Below, in pieces: positions 11,692-49,710 of a stretch of 64,000 bases of DNA; the first letter of the stretch is position 1; every line of letters begins with the position of its first letter. Below the pieces are notes generated by a model that saw nothing but the letters and a program-made list of their open reading frames with translations, did not search any database and was not told the origin of the DNA. Location of the stretch: IMG/VR virus record IMGVR_UViG_3300008107_005910, positions 12,771 through 76,770 of that record; one strand, written 5' to 3'. Source of the DNA: a virus. The translations under genes were made by a program, and so were the position numbers.

Positions 11692-11726
11692 AGTAAGATA
11701 TCCTTTAATTAAAGATATTTATCTGC

Positions 11727-34668: not shown

Positions 34669-35299
34669 TTTTCTTCTGCAATTTCATAAGTACATCCATA
34701 CCTCGATAGCTTACATCAAAAGCCAATGACAAACGAGGGACTTCTGTTTTATTTGGACGAACACCATGTTTGAGCCAACTAGGGAATAGTATCAATTCTC
34801 CTGTTCGTGTTGATATCTCTTGGCAATTTTGTGATAACTTATGTTCATCGTCTTGTGGCAAAGTAGATGCTAATGCTTCGTTAGGATCTTGAAAGTATAT
34901 GTTTCCTTGCTCATCGGATTCTTTATACACATAAAAACAACCTGATATAAAATAAGGGCTATGGTTGTGCATAATTGCATGACCACCATTATTATATTTG
35001 TTTGCCCAAGAGTAGTGTATGCCAGGACTTTGTACCAATCCCAATTCTTTCCAATATACTTCAATGTGTTGATTAATAAAATCCCAAACGTCAGATAATA
35101 TTTTTTCTTTGTGCAAGAACAACATTCCATTGGTACTTGTGCTTATTTCCTTACCTGTGCCTGAAAGCTCTGCGTAGGTAGCCGTATCTTTATCAAACTG
35201 ATGAAAGAATGGTTCAAGCCTGCGCATAAAATCCACATGATCATAATCAGGCATTGTTGCTCTATATATTCGTGTAGGAAATAAATTCACTATGGACAT
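34661..35299 (-). CDS. 2OG-Fe(II) oxygenase (TIGR02466-like)
   Basis: WAN, HNH, SGCFYV, LILFPSWLKHGV, RLSLAF. Confidence 0.85.
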   Translation of the reverse strand: MSIVNLFPTRIYRATMPDYDHVDFMRRLEPFFHQFDKDTATYAELSGTGKEISTSTNGMLFLHKEKILSDVWDFINQHIEVYWKELGLVQSPGIHYSWANKYNNGGHAIMHNHSPYFISGCFYVYKESDEQGNIYFQDPNEALASTLPQDDEHKLSQNCQEISTRTGELILFPSWLKHGVRPNKTEVPRLSLAFDVSYRGMDVLMKLQKKND

Positions 35300-35305
35300 G
35301 ATACA

Positions 35306-36262
35306 TTATAACACATTTGGGTTATAAAACACAAGAAATTGTGGAACAAACCAAACTTGCTTGGCAAACTTATGGAACATCCAGAATCCCTCAAATGTGC
35401 CTTCTGGATAATCTGATGGAACAAACAGTATCCTAGATTTCAATGTTTGTAGAGTTGGCCTTAATTTATTAAAAGTTCCTCGAATATGTATTTCATCTAG
35501 TTTGGAGATTTTACCACTATAGAACTTATCCTTAGAATCTGTTTCAGCTTCGTTGAACTCTGCACCCTTGTACACATGATACAAATCGTCTTGTTTGCCT
35601 AACCATATGCCAACCTCAACCAATTGGTCAAACAACTCTCTAACCTGTTCTACTGTAGTAAACTTATAGTCGTCATTATAAACAAAATTTTGATGGTAAT
35701 CTAATAAGTTATTAGCATTATCAAACTCCATATCAGACTGCGCTTTTAACTTATCAAACTCGCCATCACGTTGCTTTTCAACCCAATCATTCCAAATAAA
35801 GAACATAAAGCCGTCAGACTTATGTCCGTTATAAATGCTCCATTTCATTCTATGAAATATAGTTTTACAAAAACAATTTAATTGATAGGTAAACTCTACT
35901 ACATCAATGTATCCATTGCCATCCTTGTGTAGCATTGTTTCCATAACAATACCATCATAAAAAGGAATATTCCATTCCTGTAAATGTTTAAAACTTTCTC
36001 TGTCGTAAGGATTATCAGTTACAGGCGGATTGCCAAAGTCTTGACGTTTGCCTTCTTCAGCTAATGTTCTGTCAATTACTTTGTTTACTTCTGCTATCTT
36101 CTTAGGGTTAGCAACATATACTCTAGGTCTTATTTGATACCCTGGATACTTTGCAGATAGTGTTTCAGACCTATTGCTTCTTCTTTCAACTAAGAAATCA
36201 ATAATGCTTCCAAACTCTCCGCCTCTTAGATATTCATCACTATCTACATCATATACTTTCAT
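35306..36262 (-). CDS. hypothetical protein
   Basis: 318-aa ORF; no recognised motif. Confidence 0.7.
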   Translation of the reverse strand: MKVYDVDSDEYLRGGEFGSIIDFLVERRSNRSETLSAKYPGYQIRPRVYVANPKKIAEVNKVIDRTLAEEGKRQDFGNPPVTDNPYDRESFKHLQEWNIPFYDGIVMETMLHKDGNGYIDVVEFTYQLNCFCKTIFHRMKWSIYNGHKSDGFMFFIWNDWVEKQRDGEFDKLKAQSDMEFDNANNLLDYHQNFVYNDDYKFTTVEQVRELFDQLVEVGIWLGKQDDLYHVYKGAEFNEAETDSKDKFYSGKISKLDEIHIRGTFNKLRPTLQTLKSRILFVPSDYPEGTFEGFWMFHKFAKQVWFVPQFLVFYNPNVL

Positions 36263-36938
36263 TTAATATCTCCTGTAAGGACAAAGGCTGATAGCCTAAC
36301 TCCTTAAATACATTTCCTGGTAGCCTTGGATCATTGTGGCAGTTAATAAAACTTGTATTTAGACTACTAAAAATATTGTTAAATTGATCTACCATTTCTG
36401 CTGTAATACTACTGCGTTTAAGGACTACAGATTCATAGCGTGTAATCAAATTATTGTAGTTGTTATGTACAGTTGGACAATTAAATTTTTGCCCCATAAA
36501 TTCAAACTTGCCATTTTTGATTATGTCCTCAAACTTTAAAGTCGTTACATAATCTAATTTAGACAACGTAATACTATCAATAACTGATGAAGTTGTTACT
36601 GGTGTTACATAATCTAATCCAACTGGTAACTCGTCATCTTCAAACAAATCATCAATCCCAGTCAAATAAGACACTGTTGGGTGTCTAATTATATTCAATA
36701 TTTGAACATCATAATCTTTACGTAGTTGATCTAAGAACACGCGACTAAATGTTCCACCAATTGCTTGACATTGTTCTAAAGTATCATAGTCTTGTTTATA
36801 CTCAACTTCCGTTAACATTCCTAAGTCAACTCTAGGCAAAGAAAAGTTATTATAGCAATGCAAGTAAGACGCAACTGGACTAATTTCTTTTGCAAAGAAC
36901 TTGTGTTTGATCCCAGGAAGACCACTCACTACAATCAC
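36249..36938 (-). CDS. degenerate P-loop/sulfotransferase-fold-like protein (paralogue of 42026-43027)
   Basis: IVVSGLPG, GTFSRVF, NIIRHP, LKFEDI, ELGYQP. Confidence 0.55.
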   Translation of the reverse strand: MIVVSGLPGIKHKFFAKEISPVASYLHCYNNFSLPRVDLGMLTEVEYKQDYDTLEQCQAIGGTFSRVFLDQLRKDYDVQILNIIRHPTVSYLTGIDDLFEDDELPVGLDYVTPVTTSSVIDSITLSKLDYVTTLKFEDIIKNGKFEFMGQKFNCPTVHNNYNNLITRYESVVLKRSSITAEMVDQFNNIFSSLNTSFINCHNDPRLPGNVFKELGYQPLSLQEILNESI

Positions 36939-37750
36939 TCTAAACTCCTTTGTACAAATTTCATTAGCTCACCATAATACTCATCGTCTTTCATTTCTCT
37001 ACCAGTAATTTTAAAACTACGAACTCCCATCTCTTTTAGTCTACGCATTGCTGGTGGCTCTATATCCATTTCTTCATACTTGCTGTCCTTATCTGGATTA
37101 AACTTAGGCAACCAACATTCTTCTACTTCACGACTGTATGGACGTCTTGCTGTGTTCTCATCAGCAATGGCTTTGAAGTGTTCATCAAAATATTTACAGC
37201 CCCAGACGCAGGTGTCGTTCAACATTACTTCCCATTTGGTTTTATCAAGCTCATTGGATCTAGGATCAAAGATATGTTCAAAACGTGGGACTATCCAGTC
37301 GTACTTAGTTTCTAGTTCCTTGTACCAGGAAATGTCTGAATCCTGTAATGGAATGTTTAGTCTGCCCATTCCAGTTATACTGTATATTAAATCATACTTG
37401 GGAAAATTATCACGCACATATTGACGTAGACTGTCATTAACAATAATAAGGGCATTGCCTTCCCTGTGAAACTTTTCTAGTAATTCATTACCTAATGGAT
37501 CAGTTAAATCAATATTATGATTACTAAAAGTTAGAGCTATGCTTACACCTTTACTGTAGTAATAATTGATAAGAGCATCACTATAATAAACATCTCTATT
37601 GATTCTTCCGCCGTTCCAATCACATTTGTTAATACCATCGTAGACAACTAACTCGTTAGTATCAACTAAGTTGTGACTTAGGAACTTAACAAGTGGAATT
37701 GATTTACTGAATGCGCCTGCTAATAGATATCTCATTACATTAAAAAGCAT
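36935..37750 (-). CDS. peptidase U32-like (Fe-S) protein
   Basis: WNGGR, LNDTCVWGC...H...C, FKITGRE. Confidence 0.7.
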   Translation of the reverse strand: MLFNVMRYLLAGAFSKSIPLVKFLSHNLVDTNELVVYDGINKCDWNGGRINRDVYYSDALINYYYSKGVSIALTFSNHNIDLTDPLGNELLEKFHREGNALIIVNDSLRQYVRDNFPKYDLIYSITGMGRLNIPLQDSDISWYKELETKYDWIVPRFEHIFDPRSNELDKTKWEVMLNDTCVWGCKYFDEHFKAIADENTARRPYSREVEECWLPKFNPDKDSKYEEMDIEPPAMRRLKEMGVRSFKITGREMKDDEYYGELMKFVQRSLE

Positions 37751-38484
37751 TTGTCTTTAGGACAAATACCATCCGTTTTAATTCTGTAGCAACAATTATA
37801 TAGTTGCAAGTTTGGTCCATACAAAAAGTATTTGTCTTTGTATAAACAAGTTTTGCCTTTAGTTGTGAAGTTAGGATTAGCCCACAACTCTGAGCGTGAC
37901 TCACCTAAACGTTTCTCGTCTTCAAATTGTATTATGTTTTTAAGTTTACTATCGTTTTTGAGTTGATTGAACTTGTCTAATATTGTATTGCTCACTCCAT
38001 CACCAAAATCTGTAATGGGAGTCAAATACACTTCTGAAGTTTGTGCAAGCTCTTTAACTTTGAAGTAATAGATTAAAGCATTCTCTTGGCTGTACATGAT
38101 ATCGTATCTACGTACATTATGCTGTGACTGCATTACTTCGTACAGTTCTTCAATGGACATTTCACTAGGATGTATACTTGCCTGCATTGTGAATGGCTGT
38201 TGAATTCCTTTAATTACTTTAACACTATACGGACTTAGATTAGTTTGTATTACGAATGGAACGTTCAACTCGTTAAAGCATTGTATAATATATTCAATGT
38301 CAGGATGCACAAACGGCTCTCCACCAAATACAAACACTTCCACGTTAGGATATGTTTCCCCTAACATCTTAACAAAGTTACGTATAGTTTCTCTATCTAA
38401 GTTGGGATAGATGCTTTTGTCCAAGTTGGTACAATAAAAACAACCGTAGTTGCATTTCATTGTAATTTCCCATTCAACTTGCAT
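37735..38484 (-). CDS. radical SAM protein
   Basis: CNYGCFYC, FGGEPF, QTN; C-terminal C...CC...CPKDKC. Confidence 0.88.
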   Translation of the reverse strand: MQVEWEITMKCNYGCFYCTNLDKSIYPNLDRETIRNFVKMLGETYPNVEVFVFGGEPFVHPDIEYIIQCFNELNVPFVIQTNLSPYSVKVIKGIQQPFTMQASIHPSEMSIEELYEVMQSQHNVRRYDIMYSQENALIYYFKVKELAQTSEVYLTPITDFGDGVSNTILDKFNQLKNDSKLKNIIQFEDEKRLGESRSELWANPNFTTKGKTCLYKDKYFLYGPNLQLYNCCYRIKTDGICPKDKCFLM

Positions 38485-39376
38485 TTTTCACCTTTAGTTG
38501 TTTTAACAATCCATCACAATTACATGCCTTGTGTGGGCATATCATTGGTACAGTTTTTGTTATATTCTTAAAGTAGTCTGGGTTATCTATCAAACTTGTA
38601 CGTTTGCCATCCAAACAAAACTTAATAACTCCTCCGTATACATCTACTTCGTAATTATTGTTGTAGCAACTCCAACCTTGAAAATTAGTTAAACCTTGAT
38701 TGAAGACTTGATAATCATTAAACACATCATCGTCATATACTAAATCTTTTTCAAAATCTTCTAAGAATTTGAAGTACTCCCAAAAGTCTTCTCTGTAATG
38801 AAACAATGTGTGTACATCCTTTCCGTATATAAAATGTGGGTGTATTTTCAATCCTTCAATGCCTGCACAAATCTCAAACATCTCTTTGATAAGCGGCCAC
38901 AATTTCTTGTCGTGATGTAACATTATATTGACTTTACATTTATATCCACGACTCAACATTAATTTCATATTAGCAATGAATCTATCCCTGTTGGTACAAT
39001 CAGCAGGATGATAACTGAACAAAAATGCTATCTTGTCATATTGTGGATGACTAGTAAAATCTCTCTCAGCATTGGTTACTACGTATACCCATTTGAACTT
39101 GTCAATTGCATGTAGTCTGTCCATTATGTAATAGTAATGAGGACTTAGTGTTGGCTCTCCGCCCAACAATCCTAAATTGAAATTCAAACTGCTACGACTT
39201 AAAGAATCAATGACAGCATCAACAACTTCACGCTTGCCCATTTGTCCCCATTTTTCTGCATACTCATTACGAGCGTAACAGTAAGAACAGTTTAATTGGC
39301 ATATGGTTAAGACATCCCAATGCACATTAATGTGATCAGGATCTTGATCTATGTGATGTTGCTTTGAATACTTCAC
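38474..39376 (-). CDS. radical SAM protein
   Basis: CQLNCSYC, LGGEPT, SYH; C-terminal C...C...CPHKACNC. Confidence 0.88.
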   Translation of the reverse strand: MKYSKQHHIDQDPDHINVHWDVLTICQLNCSYCYARNEYAEKWGQMGKREVVDAVIDSLSRSSLNFNLGLLGGEPTLSPHYYYIMDRLHAIDKFKWVYVVTNAERDFTSHPQYDKIAFLFSYHPADCTNRDRFIANMKLMLSRGYKCKVNIMLHHDKKLWPLIKEMFEICAGIEGLKIHPHFIYGKDVHTLFHYREDFWEYFKFLEDFEKDLVYDDDVFNDYQVFNQGLTNFQGWSCYNNNYEVDVYGGVIKFCLDGKRTSLIDNPDYFKNITKTVPMICPHKACNCDGLLKQLKVKNAS

Positions 39377-40032
39377 TGATACTCCTTTAAGAAATCCATA
39401 GATACAATAACATCTAATTCTTTCTTTGTTCCTTCAAACGAAATATTGTCGCCACCATCTATTGTTTGATAAAATAATACTTTGTTTAATGTAAGAACTT
39501 GTTTTGAATGTTTGGCTGCAAACATTACTAAATTAATGTCGTTGTGTACATTATTATCCATTGGGAATGGAAAATGTTCAATTACTTTACGTTTAAAAAT
39601 AAACTGTGATAATTGCAAGTGCTCTAAATTAAGATTAGATACAAATTCCTCTGGTGTAAGTAGCGCATCATTAAACAAGCGCATGAATGTTAGCTTGTCG
39701 TCTGTATTATATGTTGGACAGTAGTTACCAGCAATGATATCTGCAACTAAGGGGACTTCAAAGTTCTTTACTAGATAGTCATCATCTTCTAAAAAGTATA
39801 CATACTCGCCTGAAGCTTTTGATAAAAGGAATTGATAGACTTTAGATAGATTATCAAACTTATTAAAATAATAAGTTATGTTAGGATGGTAGTCTTCTGG
39901 AATCACATCATCACTATCATTATTGACTATGATCTCTACGTTGTTATTGTCAAGCAATAGACGTGCAGATTTCAAACAGCGTTTGAATAACTCTGGACGT
40001 TTATGTGTAGGTATCAATATGCTTAGTTTCAT
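39373..40032 (-). CDS. glycosyltransferase family 2
   Basis: LSILIPTHKRP, GEYVYFLEDDD. Confidence 0.88.
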   Translation of the reverse strand: MKLSILIPTHKRPELFKRCLKSARLLLDNNNVEIIVNNDSDDVIPEDYHPNITYYFNKFDNLSKVYQFLLSKASGEYVYFLEDDDYLVKNFEVPLVADIIAGNYCPTYNTDDKLTFMRLFNDALLTPEEFVSNLNLEHLQLSQFIFKRKVIEHFPFPMDNNVHNDINLVMFAAKHSKQVLTLNKVLFYQTIDGGDNISFEGTKKELDVIVSMDFLKEYQ

Positions 40033-41096
40033 TTTTTTAAATAAAAGTTTACTTCTTTAATTTTTTCACCTGGTTCTGGATAAAATTCTTCATCCATTTC
40101 CTTTTTAATTCCATCACAAATATAAAAATGTTTACAAGTTACACAACTTAAATCTTTACGATAAAATCTTTCTCTATGACTGGCGGCTTCTTTATACGCC
40201 ATTTTAACTTTCTCTTCCTCAGTATATGGTCTGCTTACATCCATTTCTTGATTGTAGGTTTCGCGATTCCAATCTCTAACATCATATATGTGTTGAAATA
40301 TATTATACTGATATTGTTCATAACCCTTCATATAGCAGTACGGAGTATATCGAACAATTATTTCAATTTCCTTATCTAATTTATCAATACATTTTTTAAT
40401 ACCGTCAGTTAAATCAGATAGACTTAAATTGCTAAAGTCTTCTTCATTGTTCTCAAGCCAATAATTTAATGTAATAAAATTAACAGCTACTGGCTTAATT
40501 GAATTAATTAGGTCTGCATAAACATTTTCAAGTTGATGATAATTTCTAGAATAAACTGTACAATTGATTCTAACAATCATTCCCAATTCTTGTGCGTTTT
40601 TTATTCCTTGTAATATTTTTTCATATGATCCTGGACGATTAGTAATTGCCTCATGTGTTTCTTTGGTAGGCCCATGTAAGCTGAACAATATCTCTTTTAA
40701 TCCATGTTCCTTACTCTTACGTAAGTGATTCATATTGGCAAAAGTTCCGCCATGGCTTAGACAACTAATACTGGTAAATCTTTCATTACAGTAATCTAAA
40801 ATTTTAAACCAATCAGGACTCATGGAACTTTCGCCGCCGCTTAAATCAACTTCAGTAATGCCGTAATCATACAAATAGTCAATCCTCTTTTTGACCACTT
40901 CCCATGGAGTTTTTTGATCTAGTATATCCCTATAATAACAAAATTCACAATCATAATTACATAACGGACCAGTGTCTAATCTAGACCTATTACATCTAGT
41001 AGATTTAAAATCATAATTTAATCCAGACACACTCAACTGTTGTAAGTCGTGTTGTACAGGAGATTGTTTTGTAAAAGATATTTTACTTTCTTTCAT
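40029..41096 (-). CDS. radical SAM protein with C-terminal Cys cluster
   Basis: CNYDCEFC, SGGE, FSLHG; CVTCKHFYICDG. Confidence 0.88.
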   Translation of the reverse strand: MKESKISFTKQSPVQHDLQQLSVSGLNYDFKSTRCNRSRLDTGPLCNYDCEFCYYRDILDQKTPWEVVKKRIDYLYDYGITEVDLSGGESSMSPDWFKILDYCNERFTSISCLSHGGTFANMNHLRKSKEHGLKEILFSLHGPTKETHEAITNRPGSYEKILQGIKNAQELGMIVRINCTVYSRNYHQLENVYADLINSIKPVAVNFITLNYWLENNEEDFSNLSLSDLTDGIKKCIDKLDKEIEIIVRYTPYCYMKGYEQYQYNIFQHIYDVRDWNRETYNQEMDVSRPYTEEEKVKMAYKEAASHRERFYRKDLSCVTCKHFYICDGIKKEMDEEFYPEPGEKIKEVNFYLKK

Positions 41097-42022
41097 GTTA
41101 TGAACTCTTTAACATATTTGATAAAATCATCGTTATCTGTCAATAATAATGAATTAATGTCTTTTGAAATATCTTCTCGCCTTCTTTCAACGCCACCGCA
41201 GACATAATCAATATCATATATCACTTCCTTACCATAAACTGCACACTCAACAATAAACCTTGGGCTACAATCTCCTTTATCTGGTGTAGCAGTATATATG
41301 TAGGTATCAAAGTTTTCAAATATATTTTTGATTGGCGCTTGAGCAACAATCACATTGTCGCTTGCTATCGTTTTGTAGATGTGAGGTTCATTAGTAAGTA
41401 CTAGATATTTGTCAAATTGATATTTAGATAAAACATTTTTCAAATCATTAATTGATAATGCTCTACAGTTAGTAGTTAGGTAGAGAAGTGCTGTATTAGT
41501 TTTTATTAGTTGTGGATGATGATATTTTGACCAAAGTATCTTTTTGACATAGTCTATTACTTTGATATTAATGTTATCATATCTCTCAGGATATAACTTA
41601 AAATCCTGCATGACATGAGCATGTTTGATTGTTTTGTGATTATGGAAGCTACTGAAGTCGTCTTCACTACACCTTAGTAAAAACATATTTTCAGTATAGA
41701 AGACACAACTTAAGAATCGCCAACTGCCATCAACAACACAGACATTGTTTGCCATAACAATTTTAGGCACAGCACACTCAAACGTGTCTTCTTGTATTTT
41801 TACAAATTCGTCTTCTGTGAAACTATATTTGTCTTTGACCGCAGTTAAAAATAAATCTTTGCTAGTACGGTCAGTTAACAAAATGCAGGAATTAATTCCA
41901 TTGATAGAACTTATGTAATAATAGTCGATGAGTTCATACAAGTGGCCACTGACACCATGCTGGCATTCAAAAGAAGTGGTGAAGACGAGATCGTACTTCT
42001 TTAGATCGACTATTTTGGACAT
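41093..42022 (-). CDS. hypothetical protein, possibly GT-B glycosyltransferase-like
   Basis: HGVSGH N-terminus; FDTYIY...SPRFIVECAVYGKEVI resembles the GT-B 'EA...G.PVI' motif. Confidence 0.45.
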   Translation of the reverse strand: MSKIVDLKKYDLVFTTSFECQHGVSGHLYELIDYYYISSINGINSCILLTDRTSKDLFLTAVKDKYSFTEDEFVKIQEDTFECAVPKIVMANNVCVVDGSWRFLSCVFYTENMFLLRCSEDDFSSFHNHKTIKHAHVMQDFKLYPERYDNINIKVIDYVKKILWSKYHHPQLIKTNTALLYLTTNCRALSINDLKNVLSKYQFDKYLVLTNEPHIYKTIASDNVIVAQAPIKNIFENFDTYIYTATPDKGDCSPRFIVECAVYGKEVIYDIDYVCGGVERRREDISKDINSLLLTDNDDFIKYVKEFIT

Positions 42023-42025
42023 CTG

Positions 42026-43027
42026 TCACTCCTTTGGAGCGAAGATTTGTTCAAGAGTGATTGGGGTGTAACCTAAAGAAACAAGCAAAGAATCTGAAAG
42101 ATGTGGGAGTGGACGATTGTATTCTTTTTCTAATTCTTCTCTAAATCTAGAATATGCTGAACATATTCCTTCAACTGCGTCAACATCCACGTAGTCTAAA
42201 TTTAAATTTTCTTTTTCCCACACAGATATTATTCCGTTGTAATCTGCATATCCTTCAGGCATCTGAATTTTGTGATTTTCAATCTCAACGTAACCACTCT
42301 TTAATATATCTTCAAATTTAATAGATGTTACGTCAGTGAGTTGGTTTAGTGTATATGCGTTAACTGCTGACCTAATTGCTCTTATTCGATTTCTCTCTGG
42401 AGACATTGTAGGATTTTTTTCATAATACGAAGGTTTATTTTCGTTGAAGTATGTAACTACGGAAGGGTGTCTTATGATATTGTACACCTTTACATTTTGC
42501 TCACCTATGTCTCTTTTTATTAAATCAATAAATGCTTTTGAAAAAGAACCATTTACAACATGTACATTAGATGGTCTATTTCTATAGTAATTTAAAAAGT
42601 CTTGATAACCGTGTGCAAAACTATGATACTGTATTGGAGTATCCCATTCATAGGCGCTAGTATCTATACCAAGATCATATTCTATATCAACAAAAATAGT
42701 TTCAAAACTTGAAGGATTATTTGTCATGTCTAAAAATAATCTATCATACAAGTCGTCAGCTTCTGTAAAAATAGACAACCCGTCCTCGCCGCTAAGAAGT
42801 GTTGTTAGTTCTCGATTTTTTGTATCATAAACAACTTCATTTTGTGCATTGAATATTTGAAAAGGATGAGCTATATATGACTTACCATCGTCAGATTCTG
42901 CAAATTCTGCATCAAACGTAACAGTGTGTCCATTTTTCAAATTAAAGACTGGATTCATAGCGCAAAAAACTTTTTTTGCGATATAATTTTTATTAATTGA
43001 TTCTAGACCACTAATAATGACTAACAT
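42026..43027 (-). CDS. degenerate P-loop/sulfotransferase-fold-like protein (paralogue of 36249-36938)
   Basis: IISGLES, GSFSKAF, NIIRHP, IKFEDI, SLGYTP. Confidence 0.55.
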   Translation of the reverse strand: MLVIISGLESINKNYIAKKVFCAMNPVFNLKNGHTVTFDAEFAESDDGKSYIAHPFQIFNAQNEVVYDTKNRELTTLLSGEDGLSIFTEADDLYDRLFLDMTNNPSSFETIFVDIEYDLGIDTSAYEWDTPIQYHSFAHGYQDFLNYYRNRPSNVHVVNGSFSKAFIDLIKRDIGEQNVKVYNIIRHPSVVTYFNENKPSYYEKNPTMSPERNRIRAIRSAVNAYTLNQLTDVTSIKFEDILKSGYVEIENHKIQMPEGYADYNGIISVWEKENLNLDYVDVDAVEGICSAYSRFREELEKEYNRPLPHLSDSLLVSLGYTPITLEQIFAPKE

Positions 43028-43031
43028 CCAA

Positions 43032-43439
43032 TTATTTCCTTAGATAAGACTCAACAATCAAATTAACTGCGTCCTCATCATTTTGATTTGGCAGTCTTTT
43101 TAATTTGTTTATAATATCAAAATACTGTTCTTTTTTATCTTCTAAAATTTTAATTTCGTCTTTTAAAGTGATGTATTTTTCTAAATCTGCAATCAATGAC
43201 TCGTCATTAAGTTCAATGATTTTAATATAACATTCTTCTTTATTATCATCTGTGATTGCAATGCCTTTACTTAAAAATTTATTGTTTAACATCATTAAAG
43301 ACACGAAGTCAATTAATTTAAAAGTTAAAAGGTCATCACCAAAATAACCACGGGCCTTAGTTTTAACTGCCCATGCCGCTTTTCCTGCATAAGTTGATCT
43401 GTCAATACCTTCTATTTCTTTTTTATTACTGTCATCCAT
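43032..43439 (-). CDS. hypothetical helical protein (start MDDSNKK)
   Basis: ATG directly after the TAA of the S74 frame. Confidence 0.7.
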   Translation of the reverse strand: MDDSNKKEIEGIDRSTYAGKAAWAVKTKARGYFGDDLLTFKLIDFVSLMMLNNKFLSKGIAITDDNKEECYIKIIELNDESLIADLEKYITLKDEIKILEDKKEQYFDIINKLKRLPNQNDEDAVNLIVESYLRK

Positions 43440-43440
43440 C

Positions 43441-43873
43441 TTAAGCCTCAATCATTTTTACTGGTAATTTTGAATAGTTTACTTGATAATAACCGTTTGA
43501 ATCTTTACTTAGTGCATCTTCATATTTGGTGCCTAAAAGTTCTTGAGCCATAACACCAATATAAGTCTTAGCAGTGTTCCAAACGTAAGAGAAGGAATAA
43601 ACATTTAAGCCTTCAACAATGTCAACAAGTTTGATAGATGTCTTTAATCTAATATCACTAATTTAAATCGGCAGCTTCAATCAAACCAGTAAATCTAGCT
43701 TGAACTACAGGTGCGGCGGTGCTTCCTCGTCTAACACGTTCTAAATTGACTGCGGTTTCAATTTCTCTAAATTTGGTAGTTGTAACTTGTACTCCGGCTG
43801 CAACTGCTGGCAAAAAATAAATTACAGCATCTGATCCAGGATTGGTACCAAATGTATTAATGACTTTTGGCAT
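43441..43873 (-). pseudogene. interrupted gene: 71-aa N-terminal segment plus out-of-frame peptidase S74 (intramolecular chaperone autoprocessing) domain
   Basis: 43873-43658 has a GAGGAG SD; 43659-43441 reads SDIRLKTSIKLVDIVEGLNVYSFSYVWNTAKTYIGVMAQELLGTKYEDALVKDSNGYYQVNYSKLPVKMIEA* with no start codon of its own; junction GAT TTA AAT T AGT GAT. Confidence 0.8.
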
Positions 43874-43886
43874 TACGTTGCTCCTC

Positions 43887-44276
43887 TTATATCTCTTTGT
43901 TCAAGAACTCTAAGTTCTGTTTAGCACTATTTTGAGCAACAAACTTTTCATAATCGTCTAAATCAGAAGAGGCAGTTATAAAATCGAGAGTCTCTTCGTC
44001 TGGTGCTTTAGTAAAATTCATGTTTCCGTTTTCTACGGCTTGTTTTTCCAAAATGCTCAAAACTAATTCTTCCAATGAAAAACCCAAAATGCCTGTAACA
44101 ATTTGGATTTTTTCGCTTACATCCATATTTTTTGTTTCAGCAACATGTTTGGCTGCTTTGATAATGTTTATTGACATACCAAAGCCTTCCATGAAGACGT
44201 ATCCAACATCTTGATTCTCTTTCTCGATTTCCTTAATCAAATCATAAATTTGACCCATTTTTTCTTCAATCGCCAT
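43887..44276 (-). CDS. hypothetical acidic accessory protein
   Basis: ORF in the rSAM operon. Confidence 0.7.
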   Translation of the reverse strand: MAIEEKMGQIYDLIKEIEKENQDVGYVFMEGFGMSINIIKAAKHVAETKNMDVSEKIQIVTGILGFSLEELVLSILEKQAVENGNMNFTKAPDEETLDFITASSDLDDYEKFVAQNSAKQNLEFLNKEI

Positions 44277-45156
44277 TTTTTAATTCCTTGTCTTTAAAAT
44301 CGTGAAAACGCGGCGCATTTTCGTAATTACCATATGTTGTGACGTTGCCTTCATCAGTGAAATACGTTTTTAACTGCTTTCGCTCCCCGCATCCGTTGCA
44401 CATATCGCAAAATAGTTCACAAATAGGGGTTTTTATGCTGTTATTTATCCAATCATCTCTGAGCTGATTTTTAATCCTATCTAGGGTTTTCACATCGTTT
44501 TCGTCAATTTGTTCCCAAACTACAGATGTTATCAATCTAACTGGCTTGAAGGTTTTAATGATTCTTGTCATATCTTCATAAAGATGATTGATATTAAGTT
44601 TGTGTATGGTATATCTTATTCTAAATTTCACCCTATTTTGATTTAATTTAGATAAAACTTTAATTATGGTTGTAGTACTATCCATACCATTGTGGAAAAT
44701 CCTATCGCCATTTCCCACACCGTCAAAGCTCACGTCTATGCTCAACTGTCCGCTCTTATAAAAGAAATTATTTTTAACCCTGTTAATAAATCTTTGACTT
44801 AAAAATCTTAAACCATTTGTGGTTAAATTAAAATGTACATTCTTTTTCTTAAGATATGCGTATGACATAGCGTAACAGACATTGTCCCATTCTAAAGTGG
44901 CCTCTCCACCAAATAGTACTATTAATGTTTGTCTGTCTGGATCCAATTCTCTTTCCAAGATAGCATCAATGCTTTTTTCAATATCTTCCTTAGTCATGAT
45001 CTGTGGAGGACGACCTGGCAGATCTTCGTAACAATAGGTGCAGGCTAAATTACACTTATTTGTAAAATATAAAACATTAACTGCTGAACCTTCAAAAGTA
45101 GGTTTCTCTGTTTTATCACCTACATAAAATTCATAAGGAAAGGCCGTATCTGTCAT
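44266..45156 (-). CDS. radical SAM protein (anSME/peptide-maturase-like) with short Cys tail
   Basis: CNLACTYC, FGGEAT, TTNG, VSFDG; CELFCDMCNGC. Confidence 0.9.
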   Translation of the reverse strand: MTDTAFPYEFYVGDKTEKPTFEGSAVNVLYFTNKCNLACTYCYEDLPGRPPQIMTKEDIEKSIDAILERELDPDRQTLIVLFGGEATLEWDNVCYAMSYAYLKKKNVHFNLTTNGLRFLSQRFINRVKNNFFYKSGQLSIDVSFDGVGNGDRIFHNGMDSTTTIIKVLSKLNQNRVKFRIRYTIHKLNINHLYEDMTRIIKTFKPVRLITSVVWEQIDENDVKTLDRIKNQLRDDWINNSIKTPICELFCDMCNGCGERKQLKTYFTDEGNVTTYGNYENAPRFHDFKDKELKNGD

Positions 45157-45422
45157 TGTCTAGCCTTTGCTTCTTTTACAATGTGAGCAACATTATCTAA
45201 GAATTTTACGTAATCAAATTTATATTCAAACAAGTGGCCTGCTTCATTCCTGTAATCAACATAATGATTGTCTACTTTTGCCTTGCCTTTTTTTGCTTCT
45301 TCAATTTGTTGTTGTAAATTATCAATAGTTAAAACAGTATCGCTCTTATGCTCAACTGGCTGCATTTCTACTTTAACAGGAATGGCAGCTATGCTTTTAT
45401 AAGTTTTTTTTAATTCTTGCAT
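45153..45422 (-). CDS. hypothetical accessory protein
   Basis: Overlap-coupled between two rSAM genes. Confidence 0.65.
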   Translation of the reverse strand: MQELKKTYKSIAAIPVKVEMQPVEHKSDTVLTIDNLQQQIEEAKKGKAKVDNHYVDYRNEAGHLFEYKFDYVKFLDNVAHIVKEAKARQ

Positions 45423-46537
45423 TTTTGCACATCCTTTGAATCAGAAGCACCTTCACTGAGCCAATGAACAATGAGGTCTTGAAATACTGGCTCATCTCGA
45501 CATTCATCTACTACACGCATTGCTTGTTCGTAAGTGATGTGGAAAATTTCACAAATACTATCTAAAGGTTTGTTGTCGTTCATTATTTGACTGTAAGTAC
45601 AACCTGCATTACATACTTGTTTTAGATCACAAGGTTGGCACTTGTCAAAAGTTTTTGGATTAAACTTGTCTTGATAATATTTGAAATTATAATTGTCGTC
45701 CATGAGCATGATTTTCTTACTAGCAAATCTAGCACATGGATAAAACTCGCCGCTACTCATCAAAACACCACCGTGTGTTCCTGCAAAACAACCAAATGGT
45801 CTTTTACCTTTTACTAGTCCGTATATAGAATCTAATATTGCCAGTCTAAGGAAACCAACACTACATGATACACCTTGTTTTAACTTTTCAATATAACAGT
45901 CAGTTAGTCTAACTAATTCAGTTTTGAAAAATCTAATATCATCAGCAGTCCAAACATCGTCTCTAACAATACTAAAGTCTGGATGTGGGATACCCCAATC
46001 TAAAAGAAACTCAAAATTTTCTTTCATGTCTTTGGTATTGCCTGGCCAAATCATAACCTTACATCCATTTGCTAGATCTTTTATTAGATGTTTTTTGTGC
46101 TCGTATAAGTCTAAGATTCCATTAAACAACTCTCCAGTTTCTGGATTAGTGTTTTCAAGTAAGGGAAGTAATGGTCTGCTTTCGTTTGAACTCATTCCAT
46201 CAAAGCTCCAACTTATTCCTATTCCAGATTCTTTGATAAATTTAAACTTATCATCATCTATCATAGTTAAATTAGAGATAATGTTTATTCCTTTACATCT
46301 AGGATCTTTGGTTAATATTGGAGTTGCATGTTTGATCAATTCCCAATTTAATAAAGGCTCTCCTCCAAAAAAACTAACAAAGAAATCCTTTTGTCCAGAA
46401 CGATCCATTAATTCAAATAGTTTTGGTAAAGATTCATCAAATGTTTCTTTGGTCATCCAAGTAGGACGATTTGCCACATAACAATAAGGACATCCCAAAT
46501 TACATTTTTCAGTAACGCTAATTTCTAATACAAACAT
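45410..46537 (-). CDS. radical SAM/SPASM peptide-maturase-like protein
   Basis: CNLGCPYC, FFGGEPLL, SFDG; SPASM CFAG...PC...CQPC....VCNAGC...C. Confidence 0.92.
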   Translation of the reverse strand: MFVLEISVTEKCNLGCPYCYVANRPTWMTKETFDESLPKLFELMDRSGQKDFFVSFFGGEPLLNWELIKHATPILTKDPRCKGINIISNLTMIDDDKFKFIKESGIGISWSFDGMSSNESRPLLPLLENTNPETGELFNGILDLYEHKKHLIKDLANGCKVMIWPGNTKDMKENFEFLLDWGIPHPDFSIVRDDVWTADDIRFFKTELVRLTDCYIEKLKQGVSCSVGFLRLAILDSIYGLVKGKRPFGCFAGTHGGVLMSSGEFYPCARFASKKIMLMDDNYNFKYYQDKFNPKTFDKCQPCDLKQVCNAGCTYSQIMNDNKPLDSICEIFHITYEQAMRVVDECRDEPVFQDLIVHWLSEGASDSKDVQKCKN

Positions 46538-46546
46538 ATCGTCTCC

Positions 46547-47653
46547 TTATGCTGTACATTGTTCAGCGTGAATCTTAATAACAGGCTTTTTGTATGTGTT
46601 CATTGCAGTTCTTAGAGCATGATGAACTACTTCGTTTGTCTTAAAAACTTTACATACTTGCCAATTAGAAGTATGATCACTCCACTTTTCTAAATAAGTT
46701 TCTTTCTCTGATTTTTCAAACGTGGCTGCATTACACTTCATGCAAAATTGGCTATCGCAACTCATACAATCCAAAGGTTGATTTTTTAGTGCATCTTTAT
46801 ACATTGCACTTCGTTCTTGTATAAGTTCATCTATGTTAGGTGTTGTATTAATATTACCCATAACATGTGCATGTGATTCTTTATACATACAACCATGGCA
46901 AGGACTAATATCTCCGTTTAGGTCAACACTAACATATTTGATTCCAGCTGAACATAGCGGTCTACTCTGTTGGAACCAAGCAAAAACTTCTGGTTTTAGT
47001 TTATTGGTGTAAATGTATTTTGCAATTTTTGCCAATCCCTGTTTGAGCACTTCAAGTTTTGGATAAAATTCTTCTTCAGTTAATTGGCTGTAAAGGTCTG
47101 GAGTGGGGAAATATGAACCTGTAAGTTCATATACATCTAGGAATGCTTCATATATCAAGTGAAAGTTTTCAGCAGTTAAAACAGATTTCATTCTAACATT
47201 CAATCCATTTTCTCTAGCAGCCAAGAAATTAGCCTTTACTAGTTCAGAGCTTACGTTTCCTGATTTGTCTACTCTAGTTCTATCATTGACGGCCTTACCA
47301 TCATAAGATATTTGGAACTGTAGTCTTTCACCTAATTCTTTTGTTAGAGCAACTAGTTCTTTCATATACTTTCTTAAATATACACCATTGGTATAAAAGA
47401 AGAAACTATAATTAGAATCATGTTTATATTTTTCTATGACGCCTTTACAAAATTCCCAATTAATAAAAGGTTCACCGCCCCAAAAATAAATTTCTCTTTT
47501 TGGGTCTGAGAGTTTACTCATAAACTCTTCAATGTTGTCTAGGGTTACGGAAGTGTTTTCTTCATATGCTGTTGATAGGCCGCATTCATAGCCTTCAGAA
47601 CAGTAAGTACAAGCCAGATTGCACGTACTGGTTACGTTGATGTCAATTATCAT
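46547..47653 (-). CDS. radical SAM/SPASM peptide-maturase-like protein
   Basis: CNLACTYC, FWGGEPF, YTNG, ISYDG; SPASM CSAG...PCHGC...CMSC...FCMKC...C. Confidence 0.92.
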   Translation of the reverse strand: MIIDINVTSTCNLACTYCSEGYECGLSTAYEENTSVTLDNIEEFMSKLSDPKREIYFWGGEPFINWEFCKGVIEKYKHDSNYSFFFYTNGVYLRKYMKELVALTKELGERLQFQISYDGKAVNDRTRVDKSGNVSSELVKANFLAARENGLNVRMKSVLTAENFHLIYEAFLDVYELTGSYFPTPDLYSQLTEEEFYPKLEVLKQGLAKIAKYIYTNKLKPEVFAWFQQSRPLCSAGIKYVSVDLNGDISPCHGCMYKESHAHVMGNINTTPNIDELIQERSAMYKDALKNQPLDCMSCDSQFCMKCNAATFEKSEKETYLEKWSDHTSNWQVCKVFKTNEVVHHALRTAMNTYKKPVIKIHAEQCTA

Positions 47654-47700
47654 ATTTTTCCTTAGTATTTTTTAAACGCCCACCGCTGGGCTAATGTTAT

Positions 47701-48441
47701 TTAGCTTCTATATTTTTGGTTTATTTCGAGTACGGATTTAAGCAATTCTACGTCAAATTCTTTAACTAATGCTTCTGTATCTTTAGGTAAGCAAGGTCCA
47801 CCAAAACCACGCTCACCATCGGGGCCTGGGACTTGAAAGTGGTGTGTACCCATCCAAGGGTGATTTGCAAGTATGGATGTTACATGTGGCCACTTGACTC
47901 CTAACTGTTGGGCAACATCATACATCTGATTCATAAAGGTCACTTTGGTAGCATAAAAACTGTTCATGCAATACTTGGCCATTGCCGCAGTTTTGACATC
48001 AGTGAAGATTACTTTGTCCATATTGACAATGGACTGTGTTCTATAAATGTCGGCTAACTTGAAACCCTGTCTGTCATCATTGCAGCCAATTAAAACAAAT
48101 GGAGGATCAGTGAAATCAGTATTGGCAGTTGCCCTAGATAAAAACTCAGGATTGTAAACTATATTATACGGTACCAAGTAATCTGGAAGTATGGTACTCT
48201 TGACAACCACTATCCCAATGTATCCTGTAGATTCTATTCTATCTAAAACACTGGTCAAGATGCTATAATTGGTATCATTGGTTGGGGTGGGCACACAAAC
48301 AAAAATGGCGTCAGGTGCCTGTTTGCAAATATCTTCTACAGATATATCATTGTACTCTGGGTCTGAGCAGATGACTTGTGTTTTGGAGAATCCAAACTCC
48401 ACAGCCTTCCCCACCATACCATAACCAATAATACCAATCAT
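47701..48441 (-). CDS. UDP-glucose/GDP-mannose dehydrogenase family protein (lacks the C-terminal domain)
   Basis: GYGMVG, CVPTP, KST, YNPEFL, GFGGPCLPKD. Confidence 0.9.
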   Translation of the reverse strand: MIGIIGYGMVGKAVEFGFSKTQVICSDPEYNDISVEDICKQAPDAIFVCVPTPTNDTNYSILTSVLDRIESTGYIGIVVVKSTILPDYLVPYNIVYNPEFLSRATANTDFTDPPFVLIGCNDDRQGFKLADIYRTQSIVNMDKVIFTDVKTAAMAKYCMNSFYATKVTFMNQMYDVAQQLGVKWPHVTSILANHPWMGTHHFQVPGPDGERGFGGPCLPKDTEALVKEFDVELLKSVLEINQKYRS

Positions 48442-48519: not shown

Positions 48520-49710
48520 ATGATTAATAAAGAACCATTTGAAAAACTAATAGCGGATTTAAAAGACAGTGGCAAATATCGAGTTTTTAACGACATTGTA
48601 CGTGAAAACGGCAAGTTTCCAAATGCCATTTGGTACGGTCCTTATAACATTAAAAACATCGTAAATTGGTGCTCAAACGATTACCTAGGCATGGGTCAGC
48701 ACAAAGTTGTTATTGACGCAATGCACACTGCGTTGGATCAAACAGGGTCTGGTTCTGGAGGTACTCGAAACATTGGTGGGACTAGTCACTATCACGTAGC
48801 ATTAGAACACGAGATTGCCACGTTACATAAAAAACAAAAAGCAGTTCTTTTTTCAAGCGCCTATGTAGCCAACGAATGGACTCTAATCGCACTTGCTAAA
48901 ATTATTCCAAATATTGAATACATCAGCGACGAAAACAATCACAACAGTATGATTGTAGGTATTAGTCATAGTAAAGCCAAAAAAGTTATTTTCAAACACA
49001 ACGATATGGATGACTTAGAGCAGAAGCTAAAAATTAGTTTTGCTCAGGGTAACGTGCCTTGTGTTGTTTTTGAAAGCGTCTATAGTATGGACGGTGATGT
49101 TGGTCACATAAAAGATATTTGTAAATTAGCTAAAAAATACAAAGCTATTACCTATATTGATGAAGTACACGCAGTAGGGCTATATGGACAACGTGGCGCA
49201 GGCAAAGTAGAAGAGCTTGGACTAGAGTCAGAGATAGACATTATAAATGGAACATTAGGTAAAGCATTTGGGGTGCAGGGAGGTTACATTGCCTGCGATA
49301 GTATTGTTGCTGACGCAATACGTAGTATAGCCGCAGGCTTTATTTTTACAACAAGTATGAGTCCAGTTACATGTGCGGGTGCTTTGGCTGCAATCAAATA
49401 TTTAAAAGAGCACAATGAAATTAGAGACCGTCATCAAGAAAGAGCACAAAAATTGAAATTAGAATTAGTAAAAGCAGGACTTCCTCTTATGAGTTGTTCT
49501 ACTACACACATTGTTCCTGTTCTAGTTGGGGAAGCTAAAAAGTGTAAAGCAATGAGTGATGCATTATTAAATGATCACAACATATATGTTCAGCCAATTA
49601 ATTATCCTACTGTCAACGTTGGCACTGAGAGGTTGCGATTTGCTCCTACTCCGTTTCATGACGACGGGATGATTGAGGACTTGGTCAAAGCCCTCAAAAC
49701 ATTATTTTAA
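48520..49710 (+). CDS. hemA: 5-aminolevulinate synthase (PLP-dependent, C4/Shemin pathway)
   Basis: [64 protein letters not shown]. Confidence 0.95.

What the first reader, a model, noticed from the sequence alone, without database searches (positions are those of the whole stretch)
43441..43873. Hidden self-cleaving S74 chaperone domain marks a probable precursor/substrate gene at the centre of the rSAM island
Seen: the 71-aa ORF (GAGGAG SD) stops at TAG 43658. One base out of frame, a 72-aa frame begins exactly at SDIRLK and continues ...YSFSY...IGVMAQE...GYYQVNYSKL*, with a stop two codons upstream and no start codon. Established: SDxRLK...G..AQE...V.Y is the peptidase S74 intramolecular chaperone of phage tailspikes and fibres, which drives trimerisation and releases itself via a Ser-Lys dyad. 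Inference: this is one gene, an N-terminal fibre-like leader, then a core, then a self-removing C-terminal domain. It lies just downstream of three maturase-type rSAMs and is the only small substrate-like gene with such a domain in the island. Neither piece contains Cys, and the junction drops straight onto the catalytic Ser. A core segment (possibly Cys/aromatic-rich and repetitive) therefore appears deleted or collapsed in assembly at about 43660.
Basis: partly seen in the sequence, partly recalled or inferred. Interest (0 to 1): 0.92.

Follow-up and report, generated by a model that had tools for sequence, protein, structure and literature searches.

The report
Deleted cysteine-repeat gene in phage cassette
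This stretch is the wreck of a small phage gene: a 284-base internal deletion removed its cysteine-rich repeat core and put its self-removing end domain out of frame. Intact copies in related phages sit beside three radical-SAM enzymes that probably cross-link those cysteines, a modification I found in no paper on viruses.

Summary
The 71-aa ORF (43873-43658, minus strand) stops at TAG. One base later, in the +1 frame, a start-less 72-aa frame (43659-43441) is a true Peptidase_S74 chaperone domain (Pfam E 2.5e-7, above the cut-off).

Two syntenic metagenome contigs (99% and 90% nucleotide identity) confirm this. They carry one continuous 238-aa gene made of ORF71, then 95 residues ending in four CxCxCNY heptads, then the S74 domain. 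The window lacks exactly 284 nt, from base 2 of codon 72 to the end of codon 166. It is therefore a frameshifted, inactive copy.

The truncated form occurs on this contig only, while intact forms occur on at least 25 contigs. I could not reach the reads, so whether this is a real deletion or an assembly error stays open.

The intact gene belongs to a phage-restricted family (278 clusters). In 24 of 29 non-redundant viral loci it lies within 5.5 kb of homologues of the window's PapB-like rSAM/SPASM genes. That it is a substrate for thioether cross-linking is inferred, not shown. The closest experimental precedent is CrpC/CrpA (2026). Earlier agents of this scan noted the same family in other genomes.

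The parts
43658..43873 (-). N-terminal remnant of the broken gene. It holds codons 1-71 plus the first base of codon 72, and it ends at a TAG created by the deletion junction.
   Evidence: It is 96% identical over its full length to residues 1-71 of the 238-aa protein P0001. DNA alignment A1.
43659..43660 (-). Deletion junction. 284 nt present in L017 (6266-6549) are absent between these two bases.
   Evidence: blastn shows L017:1-6265 matching window 49924-43660 and L017:6550-16765 matching 43659-33444. Alignment; codon arithmetic. No microhomology at the junction. The left breakpoint lies inside the 16-nt palindrome AATTTTTTAAAAAATT.
43441..43659 (-). Peptidase_S74 (intramolecular chaperone, auto-processing) domain remnant, 72 codons in the +1 frame, with no start codon. 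It equals residues 167-238 of the intact protein.
   Evidence: Pfam PF13884 E 2.5e-7, 31.3 bits against a cut-off of 22. PHROGs. In 29 intact homologues S167, D168, R170, L171 and K172 are invariant. The AF2 S74 part is confident and matches BFVD chaperone domains and the MyRF ICA domain.
43887..44276 (-). 129-aa helper ORF (o129) directly upstream of the substrate gene. All-helical and acidic, function unknown.
   Evidence: Conserved in this position in L017, L018, L052-L059, L069 and L084. Alignment A5. AF2 predicts it as all helices. No Pfam or NCBIfam family.
44266..45156 (-). Radical SAM enzyme rS296. CX3CX2C at residue 35 and one C-terminal four-Cys group.
   Evidence: Pfam Radical_SAM E 5.7e-12. 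Best NCBIfam match is PapB ranthipeptide maturase at 90.8 bits, below the 340 cut-off. Cys pattern.
45153..45422 (-). 89-aa accessory ORF (o89) between two rSAM genes.
   Evidence: Homologues occupy the same position in related loci. No family hit.
45410..46537 (-). Radical SAM/SPASM enzyme rS375. CX3CX2C at residue 12 and the canonical CX2CX5CX3C SPASM motif at residue 300.
   Evidence: Matches the PapB model at 122 bits over positions 5-320 of 330, below the 340 cut-off.
46547..47653 (-). Radical SAM/SPASM enzyme rS368.
   Evidence: Pfam Radical_SAM E 1.8e-17 and SPASM PF13186 at 24.5 bits against a 21.5 cut-off. NCBIfam PapB is the best match at 74 bits.
43032..43451 (-). Conserved downstream partner ORF (o139, phrog_25260, unknown function). 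The likely start is the ATG at 43439.
   Evidence: It follows the Cys-repeat gene, or its S74-remainder ORF, in 18 of 29 non-redundant loci. PHROG hit E 4.4e-13. No Pfam, NCBIfam or Atlas lead.
40029..43027 (-). Rest of the conserved cassette: two ORFs of unknown function (333 aa and 309 aa) and a fourth radical SAM gene (rS355, 40029-41096).
   Evidence: The same order is seen in L017, L018, L052-L059, L069 and L084. phrog_27238 rSAM E 2.2e-86.

Best explanation
Shown: 43441-43873 is a single gene broken by a 284-nt internal deletion. The intact form is 238 aa and is present in near-identical phage contigs. It has a helical N-terminal domain (about residues 14-140), four CxCxCNY heptads (137-165), and immediately after them a 72-aa Peptidase_S74 domain starting at Ser167. 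The deletion runs from base 2 of codon 72 to the end of codon 166, so it removes the second half of the N-domain and every cysteine. It also creates a TAG and leaves the S74 domain in the +1 frame without a start codon. This copy can therefore make only a 71-aa fragment. All neighbouring genes are intact.

Inferred from conserved neighbourhood and family resemblance: in intact phages the three adjacent PapB-like radical SAM/SPASM enzymes act on the Cys heptads of the unfolded chain, most likely forming thioether cross-links. The S74 domain then drives trimerisation and cuts itself off at Ser167 through its Ser-Lys dyad, releasing a mature protein that ends in the modified repeat. That protein is probably a virion-associated fibre-type protein.

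My odds: deletion derivative of the 238-aa gene, 0.97. Deletion real in the sampled phage rather than an assembly fault, about 0.75. Cys repeat is the rSAM substrate, about 0.65. Thioether chemistry, about 0.45.
For: Gene structure: P0001 and P0002 (238 aa) cover ORF71 at 96% and 73% identity and carry PF13884. L017 (99% nucleotide identity) and L018 (90%) have one continuous ORF in identical synteny. The only length difference across 16.7 kb is L017:6266-6549.

Family: the profile search finds 278 cluster representatives (176 at E<=1e-10), all with 3-18 CxCxCNY units. In 29 S74-bearing members the repeat Cys, the N and Y of the heptad, and S/D/R/L/K of SDxRLK are invariant.

Association with rSAMs: 24 of 29 non-redundant IMG/VR loci have homologues of rS368, rS375 or rS296 within 5.5 kb, and 17 have all three, usually directly upstream on the same strand. 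L020 has a SPASM C-terminus ORF directly upstream.

Enzyme type: CX3CX2C plus SPASM motifs are present, and PapB ranthipeptide maturase is the best NCBIfam match for all three.

Precedent: the SPASM rSAM enzyme CrpC installs ranthionine links on the Cys-repeat protein CrpA (PMC13692751).

Real deletion rather than repeat collapse: the breakpoints lie in unique sequence and share no k-mer. The left one is 200 nt upstream of the 21-nt repeats, which lie wholly inside the lost segment.
Against: No reads could be examined, so a faulty assembly is not excluded. The truncated 71-aa product is on record from this one contig only. No biochemical or proteomic datum shows that any member of the family is modified, trimeric, cleaved or present in virions. 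The rSAMs score far below the cut-offs of the PapB and CrpC families. No RRE-type recognition domain was found in the enzymes or in the small ORFs. AF2 models the repeat with pLDDT below 50. Five of 29 loci show no rSAM nearby; three of those five are cut by a contig end.
Confidence: 0.6

Rival explanations
1. Assembly artefact. The phage in the sample carries the intact 238-aa gene, and the 284-nt gap was introduced when the metagenome contig was built.
For: The truncated 71-aa ORF is known from one contig only, against at least 25 contigs with intact 238-aa forms. The gene holds 21-nt tandem repeats that do break assemblies: contig L019 starts inside them.
Against: The breakpoints lie in unique sequence with no shared word or microhomology. 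The left one is 200 nt away from the repeats, so a k-mer collapse between repeat copies cannot give this junction. The rest of the 16.7 kb aligns to L017 with only two 1-nt gaps.
Confidence: 0.22
2. Programmed +1 ribosomal frameshift at AAT-TAG-T. This would fuse the 71-aa ORF to the S74 domain as a functional 143-aa protein without a core.
For: The S74 frame starts exactly one base after the last sense codon, at a stop codon, which is a known context for +1 shifts. The fusion would read ...AADLN-SDIRLK.
Against: The two-frame arrangement is produced by a deletion that is absent from relatives at 99% and 90% identity, all of which have one continuous frame. It is seen on one contig only. The fusion would lack half of the N-domain and all heptads, which are the invariant part of the family.
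Confidence: 0.02
3. The Cys heptads of the intact protein are a metal- or iron-sulfur-binding module and not an rSAM substrate. One option is a trimeric core lined with Cys, comparable to the His-x-His iron sites of the T4 gp37 needle. Another is an Fe-S donor for the many rSAM enzymes of the island. Either way the gene neighbourhood would reflect shared cofactor needs.
For: CxCxC places three thiols on one face of a strand. The island encodes seven Fe-S enzymes. The S74 domain implies a trimer, in which such faces could meet. The comparison with T4 gp37 comes from my own knowledge.
Against: The N and Y of every heptad are as invariant as the Cys, which fits enzyme recognition or an acceptor residue better than metal binding. 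The partnership with three specific PapB-like SPASM enzymes is kept across very diverged phages, whereas the other rSAMs of the island vary.
Confidence: 0.15
4. The intact gene is a precursor of a released RiPP-like product (antimicrobial, signalling or metal-scavenging peptide). The S74 domain would serve only as a self-removing follower, and the product would not be a virion component.
For: The cassette logic is that of RiPP clusters: an N-terminal recognition part, a repetitive Cys core, SPASM maturases and a proteolytic release step. In this window the cassette lies among metabolic and glycan genes rather than in a clear structural module.
Against: S74 domains are known only at the ends of trimeric fibres and spikes and in MYRF, and cleavage removes the C-terminal domain, not the 140-residue N-domain. 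Some family members are embedded in long fibre-type proteins, for example P0137 with a Gly_rich_2 domain and the 682-aa P0066. In CP220 the homologue lies between tail tube and baseplate genes.
Confidence: 0.15

Closest known systems
Peptidase S74 / C-terminal intramolecular chaperone (auto-processing) domains of phage endosialidases, tailspikes and fibres, and of MYRF
   Same: The Pfam match is above the cut-off. The SDxRLK Ser-Lys dyad is invariant. In intact homologues the domain sits at the C-terminus directly after a repeat region. The fold model matches BFVD chaperone domains and the MyRF ICA domain.
   Different: It is a short 72-aa version. It follows a Cys heptad repeat instead of a known triple beta-helix. 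In many relatives it is split into a 12-residue stub on the substrate and a separate ORF carrying the rest. In this window it is out of frame and cannot be made.
CrpC/CrpA of Methanococcus voltae (Dieter et al. 2026, PMC13692751)
   Same: A SPASM radical SAM enzyme acts on a large protein, not a short peptide, with a C-terminal Cys-rich tandem repeat and an N-terminal part that aids engagement. The links installed are ranthionine thioethers.
   Different: The host is archaeal, not viral. There is one enzyme, it has an RRE, and it belongs to family TIGR04463. The window's rSAMs score 30 bits against that family's cut-off of 525. The repeat is 17 residues with CxxQ/D rather than CxCxCNY, and there is no self-cleaving domain.
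Ranthipeptide systems PapB/PapA (freyrasin) and CteB/CteA (SCIFF)
   Same: PapB is the best-scoring NCBIfam model for all three upstream rSAMs. CX3CX2C and SPASM auxiliary-cluster motifs are present. The putative substrate is encoded next to them and is rich in regularly spaced Cys.
   Different: Scores are 72-122 bits against a cut-off of 340, so these enzymes are not members. No RRE was found. The substrate is a 238-aa protein with a folded N-domain. Three paralogous enzymes occur per cassette. The setting is a phage.
Campylobacter phages CP220/CPt10/CP21 (Firehammervirus): 534-aa protein with an intragenic 21-bp repeat (CPT_0180, gp140; phrog_26958)
   Same: It carries six CxCxCNY heptads encoded by the 21-bp repeat. 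A homologue of rS368 lies 2.2 kb downstream. These phages are noted for 11-12 radical SAM genes of unknown purpose.
   Different: It is a much longer protein with the repeat in the middle and no S74 domain. Only one of the three rSAM types is nearby. The published papers note the repeat and the rSAM genes but draw no link between them.

Membership tests
Peptidase_S74 (PF13884) intramolecular chaperone domain | Profile match above Pfam's gathering score | tested here: met
   31.3 bits against a cut-off of 22, E 2.5e-7, for window:43444-43659:-. The same domain scores 28.2 bits in intact P0001.
Peptidase_S74 (PF13884) intramolecular chaperone domain | Catalytic Ser-Lys dyad in the SDxRLK motif at the domain start | tested here: met
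   SDIRLK is at the first six codons of the +1 frame. S, D, R, L and K are invariant in 29 homologues.
Peptidase_S74 (PF13884) intramolecular chaperone domain | Translated as the C-terminal end of a longer protein | tested here: not met
   In this window the domain is in the +1 frame, with a stop two codons upstream and no start codon. The feature is met in L017, L018, P0001 and P0002.
Peptidase_S74 (PF13884) intramolecular chaperone domain | Trimerisation of the upstream part and autoproteolytic release | not testable with these tools
   This needs protein work. The one complex prediction gave no verdict (see Tried and rejected).
CxCxCNY-repeat phage protein family (phrog_26958 in part; no Pfam or NCBIfam model) | At least three tandem CxCxC[ND]Y heptads after an N-terminal part with the ER.RRG motif | tested here: not met
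   The window copy keeps the ER.RRG part (ORF71) but has no heptad and no Cys. No CxCxC heptad gene occurs anywhere in the window, and no second family match in the 76.8-kb record. Intact relatives have four heptads.
PapB-family ranthipeptide maturases (NF047865) | Score over the curated cut-off (340 bits) | tested here: not met
   122, 90 and 72-74 bits for the three upstream rSAMs. PapB is the best model for each but far below the cut-off.
Radical SAM/SPASM peptide or protein maturases (general class) | CX3CX2C radical SAM motif plus a C-terminal SPASM auxiliary-cluster Cys motif | tested here: met
   CX3CX2C is present in all three. rS375 has CX2CX5CX3C with flanking Cys. rS368 matches Pfam SPASM at 24.5 bits (cut-off 21.5). 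rS296 has only one four-Cys group.
Radical SAM/SPASM peptide or protein maturases (general class) | RiPP recognition element (PqqD-like RRE), fused or stand-alone | tested here: inconclusive
   The radical SAM motif starts at residue 11-12 in rS368 and rS375 and at residue 35 in rS296, which leaves little or no room for an N-terminal RRE. o89, o129 and o139 give no Pfam or NCBIfam hit. o129 is predicted all-helical. A divergent RRE is not excluded.
TIGR04463 (CrpC-type rSAM acting on Cys-rich proteins) | Score over the curated cut-off (525 bits) | tested here: not met
   The best match in the record is 30 bits.
Programmed +1 ribosomal frameshift gene | The two-frame arrangement is conserved in relatives | tested here: not met
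   All relatives with the same flanks have one continuous frame. The junction is unique to this contig.

The most novel reading that the evidence does not exclude
Large phages, from uncultured aquatic jumbo phages to Campylobacter phages of the CP220 group, use a dedicated set of radical SAM/SPASM enzymes to cross-link the cysteine heptads of one of their own trimeric, self-processing, fibre-type proteins. This would be an enzymatic RiPP-style maturation of a virus particle protein. The S74 chaperone in this system can be fused, split off as a shared separate subunit, or absent. The window would then be a natural knock-out of the substrate in an otherwise intact cassette.
Probability: 0.45. 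Interest if true: 0.8.

Novelty: new variant of a known kind. Interest (0 to 1): 0.6.

Why it matters
If the inference holds, it gives a concrete substrate for the radical SAM gene clusters of large phages. Those clusters were noted as 'highly unusual' in Campylobacter phages in 2010 and have not been explained since. It would also extend enzymatic thioether stapling from short peptides and one archaeal protein to viral proteins, and it would show a new use for the S74 self-cleaving chaperone, including a naturally split form. For this window in particular, the copy is broken. It is useful as a natural deletion variant, since the cassette is intact and only the substrate is lost, and as a warning for annotation: both fragments would be called separately or missed. 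The experiments are simple, namely co-expression plus mass spectrometry, and a cultured relative exists.

Tried and rejected
- megablast of the region against the phage records found nothing.
- tblastn of ORF71, and of the N-terminal part plus core, against cultured phages found nothing useful.
- The search for related loci with ORF71 alone found nothing in IMG/VR.
- Complex prediction with three copies of the 238-aa protein gave 'no answer' (score 0.00). This is no evidence either way.
- Foldseek against the PDB gave no match for the whole model.
- VIA-align wide gave only generic helical matches for the N-domain, best Z 6.4.
- The ESM Atlas gave no lead for o139.
- No Pfam or NCBIfam family exists for the repeat proteins or the small ORFs.
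- Stop-codon read-through or another genetic code was rejected for the window: the 0 frame after the TAG runs into TGA and TAG at once. It was also rejected for the split S74 in L021, where three stops of two kinds are followed by a Shine-Dalgarno sequence and an ATG.
- An intron or intein at the junction was rejected. Nothing is inserted in the window, and the segment missing from it is conserved coding sequence in relatives.
- Repeat collapse was rejected as the cause of the gap.
- Literature searches for phage + rSAM + Cys-rich/tail fibre, SPASM + RiPP + virion, the motif itself, and intramolecular chaperone + radical SAM found no paper describing this system.

Full report
**What is in the sequence.** On the minus strand, a GAGGAG lies 8 nt upstream of the ATG at 43873. 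The ATG opens a 71-codon ORF that ends ...AADLN, followed by TAG at 43660-43658. Starting at 43659, inside that stop codon and in the +1 frame, 72 sense codons read SDIRLK...GVMAQE...VNYSKLPVKMIEA up to the TAA at 43443-43441. In this frame a TAA lies two codons upstream and there is no start codon. Neither piece contains Cys. The +1 frame matches Pfam Peptidase_S74 at E 2.5e-7 and 31.3 bits, above the gathering score of 22. It also matches the C-terminal ends of PHROG virion and tail-fibre families. It is the only S74 match in the record. That record is an IMG/VR contig of 76,770 bases which CheckV rates 22% complete, so it is a fragment of a very large phage genome.

**One gene, with a piece missing.** A search restricted to longer proteins found two 238-aa proteins that cover the 71-aa ORF end to end (96% and 73% identity) and carry PF13884. 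Both have ORF71, then 95 residues, then the S74 domain. The 95 residues end in four heptads of the form CxCxCNY (12 Cys), and the last heptad runs straight into SDIRLK. Two metagenome contigs hold this gene in identical synteny with the window: L017 (98.5-99.3% nucleotide identity) and L018 (about 90%). Over 16.7 kb the only length difference of note is that L017:6266-6549, 284 nt, is absent from the window between 43660 and 43659. In codon terms the loss runs from the second base of codon 72 to the last base of codon 166. The retained T of codon 72 plus the AG of the Ser167 codon make the TAG. The S74 domain is left one base out of frame.

**Real deletion or assembly fault?** The junction has no microhomology. 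The 21-nt tandem repeats that encode the heptads (L017:6465-6547) lie wholly inside the lost segment, 200 nt from the left breakpoint, so a collapse between repeat copies cannot produce this junction. The left breakpoint falls inside a perfect 16-nt AT palindrome. An imperfect 10-nt inverted repeat brackets the lost segment. Both are possible aids to a deletion, but this is speculation. On the other side, the 71-aa product is on record from this one contig only, while intact 238-aa forms of the same 90% cluster are on at least 25 contigs from four sources. The tools for reads and for encoding contigs were not available. I put about 0.75 on a real deletion in the sampled phage and about 0.2 on an assembly fault. 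Either way the sequence as held encodes no functional copy. There is no second Cys-repeat gene in the 76.8 kb. All neighbouring genes have the same lengths as in L017.

**Rejected readings of the junction.** A programmed +1 frameshift is very unlikely. The two-frame arrangement is created by the deletion, is not shared by relatives, and would give a protein lacking the invariant part of the family. Read-through or another genetic code fails, because the 0 frame meets TGA and TAG immediately.

**The family.** A profile of the N-terminal part and core found 278 cluster representatives (176 at E<=1e-10) among 1.84 billion proteins. Every one of the 150 best listed except a single 2,251-aa protein combines an N-terminal part bearing an ER.RRG motif with 3 to 18 CxCxC[ND]Y heptads. 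In 29 members with a full S74 domain, three things are invariant: the Cys of the last three heptads, the Asn and Tyr of the second and fourth heptads, and S, D, R, L, K of SDxRLK. C-termini fall into classes.
- About 35 of 150 have the full 72-aa S74 domain.
- About 40 end exactly 12 residues after the Ser, as SDxRLKxxIxY[LMF] then stop.
- The rest have neither, and some of those are cut by contig ends.

In L021, L066, L069, L071, L078 and L083 the remainder of the S74 domain is a separate ORF just downstream of the stub-bearing gene or genes. In L021 that ORF has its own ribosome-binding site. Some loci hold two to four tandem paralogues, for example L069 with four stubs and one remainder ORF, and L056 with stub, full, stub. 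The family has no Pfam or NCBIfam model. Its only library entry is phrog_26958, 'unknown function'. Among representative genomes of 185,579 prokaryotic species only six loci were found, all on MAG contigs, so the family looks phage-restricted.

**Link to radical SAM enzymes.** In the window the gene follows, on the same strand, rS368, rS375, an 89-aa ORF, rS296 and a 129-aa ORF. It is followed by a conserved 139-aa ORF, two unknown ORFs and a fourth rSAM. Of 39 IMG/VR loci with a family member (29 non-redundant), 24 have a homologue of at least one of the three upstream rSAMs within 5.5 kb. Seventeen have all three, normally directly upstream in the same order. Three of the five exceptions are cut by a contig end. 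The short contig L020 shows a SPASM-type C-terminus ORF immediately upstream of its member. All three enzymes carry CX3CX2C. rS375 has the canonical CX2CX5CX3C SPASM motif and rS368 matches Pfam SPASM. For each, the best NCBIfam model is the PapB ranthipeptide maturase, at 72-122 bits against a cut-off of 340. They are therefore relatives of thioether-forming maturases and not members of that family. They are not members of CrpC's family TIGR04463 either. No RRE was found.

**Structure.** An AF2 model of the intact protein from a 29-row alignment has mean pLDDT 80. It gives a confident helical N-domain (residues 14-140), a confident S74 domain (168-238) and an unmodelled repeat (142-167, pLDDT below 50). 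The S74 part matches BFVD 'intramolecular chaperone auto-processing' proteins and the MyRF ICA domain. The N-domain has no clear relative. The deletion in the window removes the second half of this N-domain as well as the repeat, so the 71-aa remnant is half a domain.

**How the intact system most likely works (inferred).** The three SPASM enzymes modify the Cys heptads, most likely forming thioether cross-links. The invariant Asn and Tyr are candidates for acceptor or recognition residues. The S74 domain then drives trimer formation and removes itself at Ser167. The mature protein would end in the modified repeat. The S74 domain, the embedding of repeats in long fibre-type proteins (P0137 with Gly_rich_2, P0066), and the position of the CP220 homologue between tail tube and baseplate genes all point to a virion-associated protein. 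None of this is shown. Rival readings (metal-binding core, released RiPP-like product) are listed with their tests.

**What is known.**
- The closest experimental precedent is CrpC/CrpA of Methanococcus voltae, where a SPASM rSAM installs ranthionine links on a Cys-repeat protein (PMC13692751).
- Cultured relatives exist. The 534-aa protein of Campylobacter phages CP220, CPt10 and CP21 carries six heptads encoded by the '21 bp repeat motif' that Timms et al. 2010 noted inside CPT_0180. Those phages are known for 11-12 rSAM genes of unexplained purpose. Neither that paper nor the IBB_35 proteome paper links the two.
- My literature searches found no description of the system in viruses.
- Earlier agents of this scan reported the same family in at least 13 other genomes. 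What this window adds is the deleted copy.

**Verdict.** The element here is a broken copy of a gene from an undescribed, conserved phage cassette. I rate it a new variant of a known kind (SPASM-rSAM maturation of Cys-repeat proteins combined with an S74 self-cleaving chaperone). Interest is moderate to high for the system and lower for this inactivated copy.

Noticed in passing
L021:2-601 + 662-1111; L069:7971-10535 + 10520-10798; L071:7839-8516 + 8527-8811; L078:7560-8171 + 8156-8461; L083:7629-8186 + 8187-8507; L066:5505-5795: The S74 domain is naturally split. The repeat protein ends exactly 12 residues after the catalytic Ser (SDxRLKxxIxY[LMF] then stop), and a separate downstream ORF encodes the rest of the domain. 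In L069 one remainder ORF follows four stub-bearing paralogues. This suggests a chaperone/peptidase subunit that acts in trans and is shared.
   Followed up: partly
L056:7389-9446; L069:7971-10535; L063:7290-8438; L070:7860-9004; L077:7944-9166: There are tandem arrays of two to four paralogous Cys-heptad genes within one rSAM cassette. In L056 only the middle paralogue has a full S74 domain.
   Followed up: partly
L091 (Campylobacter phage CP220, NC_027997.1) 7001-8605 and 10811-11980: The '21 bp repeat' gene of CP220/CPt10 (534 aa, hypothetical; annotated in CP21 as N-acetylneuraminate pyruvate lyase) encodes six CxCxCNY heptads. It lies in the tail module, 2.2 kb from a homologue of the window's rS368. 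It offers a cultured system for testing.
   Followed up: partly
P0135 (520 aa): After the heptads, this member continues with a stretch beginning CFLAGTPVL that by eye resembles the start of a Hint/intein-type self-splicing domain. That would be a second kind of self-removing end. Pfam gave no hit, so this is unconfirmed.
   Followed up: partly
L017:6262-6277 (corresponds to window 43660-43663 and the lost segment): The left deletion breakpoint lies inside a perfect 16-nt palindrome, AATTTTTTAAAAAATT. A 10-nt imperfect inverted repeat (L017:6239-6248 and 6571-6580) brackets the lost 284 nt.
   Followed up: no
window 33053-48441: The island holds seven CX3CX2C radical SAM genes, starting at 46547, 45410, 44266, 40029, 38474, 37735 and 33053. 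It also holds a GT2 glycosyltransferase (39373-40032) and a truncated-looking UDP-glucose dehydrogenase (47701-48441). A divergent class I/II aminotransferase-fold gene follows at 48520-49710.
   Followed up: partly
L084:7926-8525: This member, in a cassette otherwise like the window's, ends directly after the fourth heptad (...CNCNY then stop). About 440 nt without an evident ORF follow before the o139 homologue. No S74 or stub was detected.
   Followed up: partly
L094-L099 (genome contigs): The only six family matches among representative prokaryotic genomes are on MAG contigs labelled Thermoplasmata, Alphaproteobacteria, Anaeromicropila, Chloroflexota and 'uncultured bacterium'. These are probably binned viral contigs or prophages. 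I did not examine them.
   Followed up: no
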